Source of the DNA: a virus
Length of the DNA stretch: 64,000 nucleotides
Direction: 5' to 3' (one strand)
Virus record (IMG/VR): IMGVR_UViG_3300044974_000943
The notes under the pieces: generated by a model
Database searches by the model: none
Told to the model about the DNA's origin: nothing
What the model saw: only the letters and a program-made list of their open reading frames with translations
Translations under genes and position numbers: made by a program
In this document: positions 35,337 to 35,562 of the stretch, one piece after another
How the letters are laid out: each line of letters opens with the position of its first letter
Numbering within the stretch: position 1 is the stretch's first letter

Positions 35337-35562
35337 CTTTTTATCTGCAATTACTATTTTTGCAGTCTGGACTATTCCTTCCGTTTACACGGTCTACCAT
35401 TTATGGGGTTAACCATCTGAGAGTTTTCATGTCTTGCGGTTTAGATTGTCTCAAGTCTCTAGACCTTCGTTTCAAGTTTCCCCGAAGTTTTGGTACGGTG
35501 TTGGCATTTCAGCTTTCGCCGTTTGAGATAGATTTTTTTGTTCGACTCAGGTTTACAAGTTA
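35337..35562 (-). mobile_element. group I self-splicing intron (226 nt, no ORF) in the tmRNA T-loop
   Basis: 5' exon GTTCGAT pairs with IGS GTCGAAC with U.G at the splice site; core AAACGGCGAA/CACCGTACC, R TAGAGACT, S AAGGAATAGTCC, P9 CTGCAA/TTGCAG, terminal G; removal restores GAGGG-TTCGATT-CCCTC. Confidence 0.9.

What the first reader, a model, noticed from the sequence alone, without database searches (positions are those of the whole stretch)
35337..35562. Group I intron inserted in the T-loop of the permuted tmRNA
Seen: P1 pairing of exon GTTCGAT with IGS GTCGAAC places U.G at the 5' splice site. P4/P6/P7 core motifs, a P9 hairpin and a terminal G are present, and excision recreates a perfect 5-bp/7-nt T-arm. 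The intron has no ORF. Established: T-loop group I introns are known in some one-piece bacterial tmRNAs. Inference: intron, permutation and phage location together are unusual. Maturation must be ordered, because splicing is needed before the tRNA-like domain can be recognised by RNase P, so splicing could act as a switch.
Basis: partly seen in the sequence, partly recalled or inferred. Interest (0 to 1): 0.8.

Follow-up and report, generated by a model that had tools for sequence, protein, structure and literature searches.

The report
Group I intron in phage tmRNA
A virus of freshwater cyanobacteria carries a two-piece (circularly permuted) tmRNA gene whose T-loop is split by a 226-base group I intron, so the ribosome-rescue RNA must be spliced as well as cut to become functional; I found no earlier record of this combination.

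Summary
On the minus strand, 35337-35562 is a 226-nt insert in the T-loop of a cyanobacterial-type permuted tmRNA gene. ARAGORN calls the gene only after the insert is removed. Related phages carry the same gene at the same locus without the insert.

The insert has a full group I layout: P1 with U.G at the 5' splice site, P3-P9, a bulged-A P7 with an invariant G-C pair, and a terminal G.

Rfam Intron_gpI does not hit it directly, but three other lines of evidence do:
- A model built only from cyanobacterial tRNA-Leu introns gives its single window hit on P4-P6/P7.
- A model of this intron finds full-length relatives: cyanobacterial class II RNR genes split at NPCG|E, and phage tRNA-Asn genes.
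- Rfam scores some of those relatives as group I introns.

Across 11 sequences, 39 of 53 pairs covary.

PA-SR01 and one IMG/VR contig carry the same intron at the same site. Their intron cores are 94-97% identical while the exons are only 65-72% identical.

Self-splicing, ordered maturation and any "switch" role remain untested. This is a new variant of a known kind.

The parts
35612..35620 (-). Possible extended -10 promoter element (TGCTATAAT) about 40 nt upstream of the T-arm
   Evidence: Read directly from the sequence. The simple promoter scan did not flag it because the -35 match is weak. Inference only.
35574..35600 (-). 5' part of the acceptor piece. It includes GGTCTAG and CTCTT, which can pair with CTAGACC and AAGAG of the coding piece (the long helix of two-piece tmRNAs).
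   Evidence: Sequence complementarity. The homologous region of the intron-less allele L005 aligns to the paired columns of RF01851.
35563..35573 (-). 5' exon end: T-stem 5' strand GAGGG (35573-35569) and T-loop nucleotides 1-6, TTCGAT (35568-35563). U35563 is the -1 nucleotide.
   Evidence: The intron lies between T-loop nucleotides 6 and 7, which I read as the main subsite (position 7) of known tmRNA introns (PMC11915505).
35337..35562 (-). Group I intron, 226 nt, no ORF.
- L1 35562-35547
- IGS/P1' GTCGAAC 35546-35540
- J1/3 A7 35539-35533 (no P2)
- P3 TCTATC 35532-35527 with GGTAGA 35398-35393
- P4 ACGGCG 35522-35517 with CACCGT 35500-35495
- J4/5 AAA
- P5 GCT-GAAA-TGC 35513-35504
- J5/4 CAA
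- P6 35494-35463
- J6/7 CTA
- P7 G(A)GACT 35459-35454 with AGTCC 35373-35369
- P7.1 35453-35449 with 35422-35418
- P7.2 35416-35413 with 35406-35403
- P8 CCGT-GTAA-ACGG 35392-35381
- J8/7 AAGGAAT 35380-35374
- P9 CTGCAA 35365-35360 with TTGCAG 35350-35345
- terminal (omega) G 35337
   Evidence: Hand model checked pair by pair. The unconstrained MFE fold reproduces P1, P3, P4, P7.1, P7.2, P8 and P9. The tRNA-Leu intron model R1 aligns 35522-35451 to P4-P5-P6-J6/7-P7. Covariation.
35323..35336 (-). 3' exon of the acceptor piece: T-loop nucleotide 7 (T35336), T-stem 3' strand CCCTC (35335-35331), acceptor 3' strand TTGCTCC (35330-35324) and discriminator A35323. CCA is not encoded.
35317..35322 (-). 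6-nt intervening segment (TTTCAC) between the acceptor piece and the coding piece
   Evidence: The gene order (3' acceptor strand, then linker, then 5' acceptor strand) defines the permuted form.
35147..35316 (-). Coding piece.
- 5' acceptor strand GGGGCAA (35316-35310), which pairs with TTGCTCC and includes G3.U70
- tag frame 35231-35178 (AKNNICRLVRKAAPVAV, then stop)
- terminal hairpin AGAGCCAGC/GCTGGCTCT (35173-35147)
   Evidence: ARAGORN call after excision. Weak Rfam tmRNA hits on the tag region. Sequence.

Best explanation
The locus is a phage-encoded, cyanobacterial-type two-piece (circularly permuted) tmRNA gene. Its acceptor piece is interrupted, between T-loop nucleotides 6 and 7, by a compact ORF-less group I intron.

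Proposed pathway (inferred):
1. One precursor is transcribed.
2. The intron folds. P1 is formed by the last T-stem base plus TTCGAT with the internal guide GTCGAAC. The core is P3-P8 / P4-P6 / P7, with P7.1 and P7.2 between P7 and P3'.
3. Exogenous guanosine attacks after U35563.
4. The freed 3'-OH attacks after G35337 and ligates the exons, restoring the T-arm GAGGG/TTCGATT/CCCTC.
5. RNase P cuts before G35316. 3' trimming and CCA addition after A35323 separate the acceptor and coding pieces, which stay paired.
6. The RNA then works with host SmpB, since the phage has none.

Shown here: the gene, the insert, the intron-less alleles, the fold, and its homology to group I introns.
Inferred: catalysis, the order of steps, and in vivo function.

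The intron belongs to a clade that also sits in cyanobacterial class II RNR genes and in phage tRNA-Asn genes. It has probably moved between diverged phage tmRNA alleles.
For: 1. Gene restored by excision. ARAGORN finds nothing in the raw window. It calls tmRNA* after removal of 35337-35562. The same holds for PA-SR01 and for L171.

2. Intron-less alleles at the same locus. These are in IMG/VR relatives L004 and L005 (T-arm AAGAG/TTCGACT/CTCTT). Rfam recognises them: RF04321 scores 62.6 bits against a gathering score of 47, and RF01851 scores 67 bits. No second copy of the intron exists in any of the four phage genomes searched.

3. Canonical anatomy. U.G in a 7-bp P1, a terminal G, J4/5 AAA, J5/4 CAA, AGAGACU/AGUCC forming P7 with a bulged A, and J8/7 AAGGAAUAGUC against the Rfam consensus GAAGAUAUAGUC.

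4. Independent model. CM R1 was built from 13 cyanobacterial tRNA-Leu introns only. It gives one hit in the 64-kb window, at 35451-35522 (-), 12.6 bits, E 0.069, in the predicted register. In 571 kb of other DNA it gives nothing that high except true tRNA-Leu introns and the PA-SR01 copy.

5. Relatives found with CM R2 (window plus PA-SR01).
- Full-length hits in 5 of 151 cyanobacterial genomes, 31-53 bits, E down to 2e-13.
- The best hit splits a class II RNR ORF after NPCG and resumes EII....
- It also hits viral contigs. Rfam RF00028 scores three of these at the same places: L176 63.7 bits (above the gathering score), L161 44.9 bits and L167 38 bits.

6. Covariation over 11 sequences. 93% of cells are paired, against 34-41% when partners are slid. 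39 of 53 pairs change on both sides. P7 was not in the model structure, yet it is 96% paired with 3 of 5 pairs covarying, and its G-C pair is invariant.

7. Window versus PA-SR01. There are 13 differences. Nine lie in loops or junctions and four in stems, and all four preserve pairing, including one G-C to A-U double change in P6.

8. Conservation. The intron core is 94.5-97% identical among three phages, whose tmRNA exons are 65-72% identical and whose flanking genes are 68-77% identical.
Against: - Rfam Intron_gpI gives no hit on the window, even at E up to 10 over 1.1 kb.
- A sequence-only HMM of tRNA-Leu introns is not significant.
- The direct hit of the independent model is marginal (E 0.069, with rough calibration) and covers only the 5' half.
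- P4 has a C.A mismatch, P5 has only 2-3 pairs, and P2 is absent.
- P7.2 has no covariation support.
- An alternative 6-bp pairing, GGUCUA (35465-35460) with UAGACC (35396-35391), competes with P3, P6 and P8.
- The covariation alignment was fitted to the model, and its 11 rows are few lineages.
- No RNA data exist. Splicing, ligation and tmRNA function are all inferred.
Confidence: 0.88

Rival explanations
1. The insert is a dead group I intron relic that no longer splices. The tmRNA gene in this phage, in PA-SR01 and in L171 would then be a pseudogene.
For: - P4 carries a C.A mismatch, P5 is minimal and P2 is missing.
- Related phages (Pam2, L135) have tmRNAs with non-canonical T-loops that ARAGORN does not call. 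This suggests relaxed constraint on the gene in this phage group.
- There is no experimental evidence of splicing.
Against: - The 165-nt core is 94.5-97% identical across three phages whose exons and neighbouring genes are only 65-77% identical.
- All stem differences preserve pairing.
- The splice-site U.G, the terminal G and the P7 G-C pair are intact in all three copies.
- The exons still give a complete tRNA-like domain and an open tag frame in all three.
- The C.A position in P4 is variable in relatives (U.G, G-C, U-A).
Confidence: 0.07
2. The insert is not spliced and ligated. Instead it is an intervening sequence cut out by host RNases, giving a three-piece tmRNA with a broken T-loop. 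Alternatively it is an unrelated mobile insertion.
For: The gene is already of a kind whose precursor is cut into pieces that stay paired. RF00028 does not hit the insert.
Against: - The insert has every group I core element in order, with covariation.
- It is homologous to elements that must be spliced to restore an RNR reading frame and to Rfam-recognised group I introns.
- A nick in the T-loop would destroy the conserved loop that the exons so precisely restore.
- No terminal repeats or transposase were noted in or beside the insert; this was not specifically tested.
Confidence: 0.03
3. An addition to the main explanation: splicing is a regulatory gate. The phage tmRNA becomes active only when or where the intron can fold and splice (for example depending on infection stage, GTP or Mg2+ level, or temperature), and RNase P and CCA addition must follow splicing.
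For: - P1 uses the last T-stem base and six T-loop bases, so the T-loop cannot exist before splicing.
- The intron has been kept in three diverged phages.
- Another phage two-piece tmRNA is reported under riboswitch control (PMC9004378).
Against: - No data address this idea.
- Sister phages do without the intron. That fits a selfish, phenotypically neutral element.
- The T-stem can still close around the intron in the predicted precursor fold, so strict ordering is not required.
Confidence: 0.12

Closest known systems
T-loop group I introns of one-piece bacterial tmRNA genes (first described in Clostridium botulinum, 287 nt, self-splicing; 883 unique sequences in the 2025 tmRNA database)
   Same: - Same host RNA and same loop.
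- I read the insertion point, between T-loop nucleotides 6 and 7, as the database's main subsite (position 7).
- U at -1 paired to G in P1, and a terminal G.
- Mostly ORF-less.
- The database paper mentions a P7.1 region for those introns (PMC11915505; PMC2729099).
   Different: - The host gene here is circularly permuted (two-piece), phage-borne and of cyanobacterial type.
- The database lists no permuted-plus-intron form and no intron form in Cyanobacteriota.
- At 226 nt, this intron is shorter than the C. botulinum intron (287 nt).
- Sequence homology to those introns was not tested, because none could be fetched.
Cyanobacterial tRNA-Leu(UAA) anticodon-loop group I introns (subgroup IC3 from my own knowledge; recognised by Rfam RF00028)
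   Same: They share the order and sequence of J3/4-P4-J4/5(AAA)-P5-J5/4(CAA)-P4'-P6-GAAGGU-NN-AGAGACU and of J8/7-AGUCC. A model built from them alone hits this intron's P4-P7 segment.
   Different: - This intron has no P2.
- Its P5 is a minimal GAAA hairpin.
- It has about 54 nt (P7.1 and P7.2) between P7 and P3', a feature of subgroup IA (PMC3984707).
- The overall score is only 12.6 bits.
- It sits in the T-loop, not the anticodon loop.
Group I introns in cyanobacterial class II ribonucleotide reductase genes at the NPCG|E site (found here in L145-L148; cyanobacterial nrdE introns are reported in PMC3984707)
   Same: These are the nearest relatives found outside the phage tmRNA genes: full-length matches of 41-53 bits. 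They share the A-rich J1/3, P3-P9, P7.1, the GAAAGCUGA(A/G)AUGC P4-P5 block and many compensatory changes. RF00028 also misses them.
   Different: They interrupt a protein-coding gene. They lack P7.2 or have a different one. Their P1 guide sequence differs, and they carry extra 3' hairpins (intron 246 nt in L145).
Phage-encoded two-piece tmRNAs (for example OM43 phage Melnitz; 53 of 133 unique phage tmRNAs were called permuted by ARAGORN)
   Same: A phage carries a complete permuted ssrA gene whose type need not match that of its host (PMC9004378). Here, host-genus Pseudanabaena and Limnothrix genomes have one-piece tmRNA.
   Different: That survey relied on ARAGORN, which misses this interrupted form, and does not mention introns.
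Group I introns in phage tRNA genes (tRNA-Asn(GTT) with a 183-nt intron in IMG/VR contigs L161 and L172, found here)
   Same: They belong to the same intron clade by model R2 (39-43 bits). They sit in a phage-encoded structural RNA gene. Rfam scores L161's copy at 44.9 bits.
   Different: They sit in the anticodon loop, lack P7.1 and P7.2, and have a different guide sequence.

Membership tests
Group I intron | P1 helix between the 5' exon end and an internal guide sequence, with U.G at the 5' splice site | tested here: met
   GTTCGAT (35569-35563) pairs with GTCGAAC (35546-35540): 7 bp, with U35563.G35546. The same holds in PA-SR01. L171 has UCGAU/GUCGA.
Group I intron | Terminal (omega) G at the 3' splice site | tested here: met
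   G35337 precedes the 3' exon TCCC. A terminal G also precedes the 3' exon in PA-SR01 and L171.
Group I intron | Conserved core: P3-P8 and P4-P6 domains, and the P7 pseudoknot with a bulged nucleotide and the G-binding G-C pair, all in canonical order | tested here: met
   All helices are present. Over 11 sequences, 93% of cells are paired and 39 of 53 pairs covary. P7 is 96% paired and its G-C pair is invariant.
Group I intron | Significant match to a curated or independent group I covariance model | tested here: inconclusive
   - RF00028 gives no direct hit.
- The independent tRNA-Leu intron model gives a single window hit on P4-P7, 12.6 bits, E 0.069, with no comparable false hit in 571 kb.
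- Indirect link: this intron's model hits L176, L161 and L167, which RF00028 scores at 63.7, 44.9 and 38 bits.
Group I intron | Guanosine-dependent self-splicing with exon ligation | not testable with these tools
   This needs in vitro transcription and a splicing assay, or RNA from infected cells.
Two-piece (circularly permuted) tmRNA, cyanobacterial type | Gene order: T-arm and 3' acceptor strand first, then a short linker, then the 5' acceptor strand and tag frame. Acceptor stem with G3.U70. | tested here: met
   The order is TTGCTCC-A, then TTTCAC, then GGGGCAA. The seven acceptor pairs include G.U at position 3. ARAGORN calls 'tmRNA*' after excision.
Two-piece (circularly permuted) tmRNA, cyanobacterial type | Match to the Rfam permuted tmRNA models | tested here: inconclusive
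   The window as it stands gives only a 17.6-bit partial hit on the tag region, because the intron breaks the model. The spliced sequence could not be given to Rfam. The intron-less allele at the same locus in L005 passes RF04321 (62.6 bits against 47) and scores 67 bits on RF01851.
Two-piece (circularly permuted) tmRNA, cyanobacterial type | Tag reading frame of the cyanobacterial ANNIV...R..A.VAA type | tested here: met
   The tags are AKNNICRLVRKAAPVAV (window), AKNNICQFSRKAAPVAA (PA-SR01) and VNNIVSFSRKATPVAA (L005). The window's tag ends in -AV rather than -AA.
tmRNA 'intron' gene form (Williams 2002; PMC11915505) | Group I intron within the T-loop at one of subsites 2, 3, 7 or 8 | tested here: met
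   The intron lies between T-loop nucleotides 6 and 7, which I read as subsite 7, the main one.
tmRNA 'intron' gene form (Williams 2002; PMC11915505) | Homology of the intron to the known tmRNA intron lineage (tmRNA_intron model) | not tested
   The model and its sequences are not held here. A sample of 151 Bacillota genomes gave no intron-form tmRNA to compare.

The most novel reading that the evidence does not exclude
An ORF-less group I intron moves between diverged phage tmRNA alleles, and between RNR, tRNA and tmRNA genes of cyanobacteria and their phages. In this phage it has been co-opted as a gate, so that the phage's own ribosome-rescue RNA is activated by splicing only at a certain stage or physiological state of infection. 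That would add a third maturation layer (splice, cut, add CCA) to a two-piece tmRNA.
Probability: 0.1. Interest if true: 0.8.

Novelty: new variant of a known kind. Interest (0 to 1): 0.6.

Why it matters
It adds a fourth tmRNA gene form, permuted plus intron, to the three catalogued ones. It also shows that group I introns reach tmRNA genes of the cyanobacterial type, in a phage.

It gives three natural intron-plus alleles and several intron-less alleles in closely related phages. One of these, PA-SR01, is a cultured phage with a culturable Pseudanabaena host. That makes a ready system for three questions:
- whether splicing, RNase P cleavage and CCA addition are ordered;
- whether the intron costs or benefits the phage;
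- how an intron without a homing endonuclease spreads.

It exposes an annotation blind spot. ARAGORN and Rfam both miss this gene, and PA-SR01's record and paper list no tmRNA. Rfam Intron_gpI also misses several members of this cyanobacterial and phage intron clade, including the RNR introns at the catalytic NPCGE motif.

With the phage tRNA-Asn introns found here, it also qualifies the 2014 generalisation that phage introns lie only in protein-coding genes.

Tried and rejected
- Rfam on the window at the gathering score, at E up to 10, and on the whole phage genome: no group I hit.
- Exact 23-mer scans for the J6/7-P7 block in IMG/VR and in GTDB genomes: nothing.
- blastn of the intron against 50,697 phage records: only PA-SR01.
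- A sequence-only nhmmer profile of tRNA-Leu introns: no significant hit. Its exact 15-mer match at 9094-9108 lies antisense inside a 590-aa ORF and scores 1.9 bits with the structural model, so it is chance.
- A hunt for known intron-form tmRNAs in 151 Bacillota genomes: none. The one truncated hit was a contig end. Homology to the classical tmRNA introns therefore stays untested.
- A metagenome scan with the neighbouring Erf-like recombinase: only one further, truncated tmRNA allele, L135.
- R1 on the whole window with filters off: the tool failed, so default filters were used.
- R1 does not separately detect the 3' half (P8-J8/7-P7').
- The GGUCUA/UAGACC pairing that I first took for P7 was rejected. 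AGAGACU/AGUCC matches the group I consensus and covaries.
- No homing endonuclease was found in or beside the intron, and no SmpB in the phage.
- I did not assign a subgroup (IA versus IC3). The core resembles IC3 tRNA introns, while P7.1 and P7.2 are IA-like.

Full report
**What the window is.** The window lies in an IMG/VR virus record of 142,452 bp, estimated 98% complete. Its nearest named relatives are Pseudanabaena phages PA-SR01 (MT234670) and Pam2 (ON014754), at about 83% DNA identity around the finding. All features discussed here are on the minus strand.

**The observation.** Reading 35700-35000 on the minus strand gives this order:
- a T-stem strand GAGGG and TTCGAT (35573-35563);
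- 226 nt (35562-35337);
- T, CCCTC, TTGCTCC and A (35336-35323);
- a 6-nt linker TTTCAC;
- GGGGCAA (35316-35310), which pairs with TTGCTCC over seven positions, including G3.U70;
- a tag frame GCG...TAA (35231-35178);
- a terminal hairpin.

ARAGORN finds no tRNA or tmRNA in the raw window. Rfam at gathering scores finds nothing. When 35337-35562 is cut out in silico, ARAGORN calls a permuted tmRNA with tag AKNNICRLVRKAAPVAV*. Only this boundary satisfies both U(-1).G and a terminal G.

**Presence and absence in relatives.**
- PA-SR01 has the same gene with a 227-nt insert that is 94.3% identical. Its record has no feature there, and its paper reports only three tRNAs (PMC10286775).
- Two IMG/VR relatives, L004 and L005 (the latter a 147,778-bp genome rated 100% complete), have an uninterrupted permuted tmRNA at the same locus. 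It lies upstream of the same Erf-like recombinase gene and has T-arm AAGAG/TTCGACT/CTCTT.
- Rfam scores that intron-less allele at 62.6 bits on tmRNA_permuted (gathering score 47) and 67 bits on cyano_tmRNA.
- Pam2 and a metagenome contig (L135) also lack the insert, but their T-loops are non-canonical.
- The intron model finds one copy per genome in this phage and in PA-SR01, and none in the L005 phage or Pam2.

The 226 nt are therefore an insertion into a recognisable gene, polymorphic among close relatives.

**Is it a group I intron? Direct Rfam evidence is negative.** RF00028 gives nothing, even at E up to 10 over 1.1 kb or over the whole phage.

I fetched cyanobacterial tRNA-Leu(UAA) introns and used their Rfam-annotated structure as a template. 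The insert aligns element by element:

| Element | This intron |
|---|---|
| P3 | UCUAUC/GGUAGA |
| J3/4 | UCAA |
| P4 | ACGGCG/CACCGU |
| J4/5 | AAA |
| P5 | GCU-GAAA-UGC |
| J5/4 | CAA |
| P6 | closing with GAAGGU |
| J6/7 | CUA |
| P7 | G(A)GACU/AGUCC, with the bulged A |
| P8 | CCGU-GUAA-ACGG |
| J8/7 | AAGGAAU |
| P9 | CUGCAA/UUGCAG |
| 3' end | terminal G |

About 54 nt between P7 and P3' form two hairpins, P7.1 and P7.2. There is no P2; seven A residues link P1 to P3. The unconstrained MFE fold of the same RNA independently contains P1, P3, P4, P7.1, P7.2, P8 and P9.

**Independent statistical support.**
- A covariance model built only from 13 tRNA-Leu introns (R1) gives exactly one hit in the 64-kb window on either strand. 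It lies at 35451-35522 (-), scores 12.6 bits with E 0.069, and aligns P4-P5-P6-J6/7-P7 in the register of the hand model.
- In 571 kb of other bacterial and phage DNA, R1 finds only true tRNA-Leu introns (above 200 bits), the PA-SR01 copy (14.3 bits) and one 8.6-bit fragment.
- A sequence-only profile is not significant, so the signal depends on structure.

**Relatives.** A model of the window and PA-SR01 introns (R2) was run on 151 cyanobacterial genomes. It gave full-length matches of 31-53 bits, with E down to 2e-13, in five of them.
- In L145 the element starts right after ...LNPCG of an ORF carrying class II ribonucleotide reductase domains (PF21995, PF17975). The frame resumes EIIGANFH, followed by an intein. 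This is a bona fide intron at the catalytic NPCGE motif.
- Rfam misses these elements as well, so its silence on the window is a sensitivity gap.
- A motif scan of IMG/VR followed by R2 found further members. L161 and L172 interrupt a phage tRNA-Asn(GTT) anticodon loop.
- RF00028 scores L176 at 63.7 bits (above its gathering score), L161 at 44.9 bits and L167 at 38 bits, at the same coordinates that R2 hits. This links the window's intron to curated group I introns by a chain of homology.

**Covariation.**

| Alignment | Cells paired | Pairs changed on both sides | Cells paired when partners slid |
|---|---|---|---|
| 5 sequences | 94.5% | 30 of 53 | 33-42% |
| 11 sequences | 93% | 39 of 53 | 34-41% |

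P7 was not part of the model structure, so it is not favoured by the alignment. It is 96% paired, three of its five pairs covary (GACU/AGUC, GAGU/ACUC, GCGU/ACGC), and the second G-C pair is invariant.

Caveats: the rows represent few lineages, the alignment is model-fitted, P7.2 occurs in only four rows and does not vary, and P5 keeps a U.U.

Between the window and PA-SR01, all 13 differences are either in loops or junctions (9) or preserve pairing (4). One of the latter is a G-C to A-U double change in P6.

**A third intron-bearing tmRNA.** L171 (IMGVR_UViG_3300045533_000084) is syntenic with the window but more distant; its flanking genes are 68-77% identical. It has a 218-nt intron (L171:972-1189, minus) at the same T-loop site of a different permuted tmRNA: T-stem GTGAG/CTCAC, acceptor strands GGGGTCA/TGGCTCC, tag GKSNNIVNFSRKSAVVV. 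ARAGORN calls it only after excision. The 165-nt intron core is 94.5-97% identical among the three phages, whereas the exons are 65-72% identical. P1 loop, J1/3 and P9 differ. This points to strong constraint on the ribozyme core, to lateral spread of the intron between diverged alleles, or to both. No homing endonuclease lies in or next to the intron.

**How it most likely works.** See the best explanation for the steps. Shown here are the gene, the insert, the fold and the homology. Inferred are guanosine-initiated self-splicing that restores the T-loop, then RNase P cleavage before G35316 and 3' trimming with CCA addition after A35323 (CCA is not encoded), and use of host SmpB (none in the phage).

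Genomes of the host genus Pseudanabaena and of Limnothrix have one-piece tmRNAs. The phage gene is therefore not a copy of the resident host gene type.

It is not required, because the T-stem can still close around the intron in the predicted precursor fold. The 'switch' idea is untested, and intron-less sister phages fit a neutral selfish element.

**Comparison with what is known.**
- T-loop group I introns are established in one-piece tmRNAs. The C. botulinum intron is 287 nt and self-splicing (PMC2729099). The 2025 database has 883 unique sequences at four subsites, mostly position 7 (PMC11915505).
- That database of 97,179 sequences lists standard, permuted and intron forms only. For Cyanobacteriota it lists 2,344 standard, 1,062 cyano-type permuted (plus 7 alpha/beta-type) and 0 intron forms.
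- Its pipeline relies on ARAGORN, BLAST and models that miss this form.
- Phage two-piece tmRNAs are known (PMC9004378).
- A 2014 review states that all phage introns then known were in protein genes (PMC3984707).
- Full-text searches found no paper on an intron in a permuted or phage tmRNA.

I file it as a new variant of a known kind. It is a group I intron by structure and homology, though catalysis is untested. It sits at what I read as the classical tmRNA site, but in a permuted, phage-borne, cyanobacterial-type gene. Whether it descends from the bacterial tmRNA intron lineage could not be tested.

**Earlier scan notes.** Other first-stage notes on this same stretch exist. They agree on the permuted tmRNA and the intron, but they were not used as evidence.

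Noticed in passing
L002 (Pam2) about 5500-5650, minus strand: A tRNA-Leu-like 5' half (GGGCGAGTGGCGGAATTGGTAGACGCG...) and a T-arm plus acceptor 3' half (GGGGATTCGATTTCCCCCTCGCCC) are separated by roughly 100 nt. ARAGORN makes no call. This may be an interrupted or degenerate tRNA gene.
   Followed up: no
L002 (Pam2) about 4700-4900 minus; L135:40-220: These intron-less permuted tmRNA alleles have intact acceptor stems (G3.U70) and tag frames. Their T-loops are non-canonical: TGGAT-GGGTAGCATTA-ATCCA in Pam2 and CTTGG-GGCAGTA-CCAAG in L135. 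ARAGORN does not call them.
   Followed up: partly
L145:1510-1755, and L146-L148: Cyanobacterial class II RNR genes are split after NPCG by a roughly 246-nt group I intron, followed a few codons later by a LAGLIDADG intein. Rfam RF00028 gives no hit at E up to 0.01.
   Followed up: partly
L161:7829-8084 and L172:6296-6553: IMG/VR contigs with long tRNA arrays carry a tRNA-Asn(GTT) gene with a 183-nt group I intron in the anticodon loop. ARAGORN finds it with the intron option, and RF00028 scores L161's copy at 44.9 bits.
   Followed up: partly
L167:1238-2872 (same element in L173): Four group I intron matches lie in tandem within about 1.6 kb of one viral contig. Three come from RF00028 (1238-1516, 1900-2146, 2641-2872); R2 matches the last of these (2629-2849) and one more (2351-2582). 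The host gene was not identified.
   Followed up: no
window 35465-35460 and 35396-35391 (minus strand): A perfect 6-bp pairing, GGUCUA/UAGACC, inside the intron competes with P6, J6/7, P3' and P8, and appears in the MFE fold of the larger precursor. It may be an alternative inactive conformer, or chance.
   Followed up: no
window 35178-35186: The tag ends ...APVAV in this phage but ...APVAA in PA-SR01 and ...TPVAA in L005. The usual C-terminal Ala-Ala is changed to Ala-Val here.
   Followed up: no
window 9094-9108 (minus strand): An exact 15-mer, AAGGCAATCCTGAGC, equals the conserved P5'/J5/4/P4' block of tRNA-Leu introns. It lies antisense inside a 590-aa ORF (7658-9430) and scores only 1.9 bits with the structural model, so it is most likely chance.
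   Followed up: yes
window 39490-39655 versus L171:4334-4499: This stretch is 93% identical between phages whose neighbouring genes are 68-77% identical. It lies in an ORF-poor region that other notes flag as a candidate structured RNA.
   Followed up: no
G003, G004, G005 (Limnothrix and Pseudanabaena genomes): Host-genus genomes carry full-length one-piece tmRNA (RF00023, 108-113 bits), while the phages carry a permuted cyanobacterial-type gene. A fourth genome, the Pseudanabaena MAG G002, gave no tmRNA hit.
   Followed up: partly
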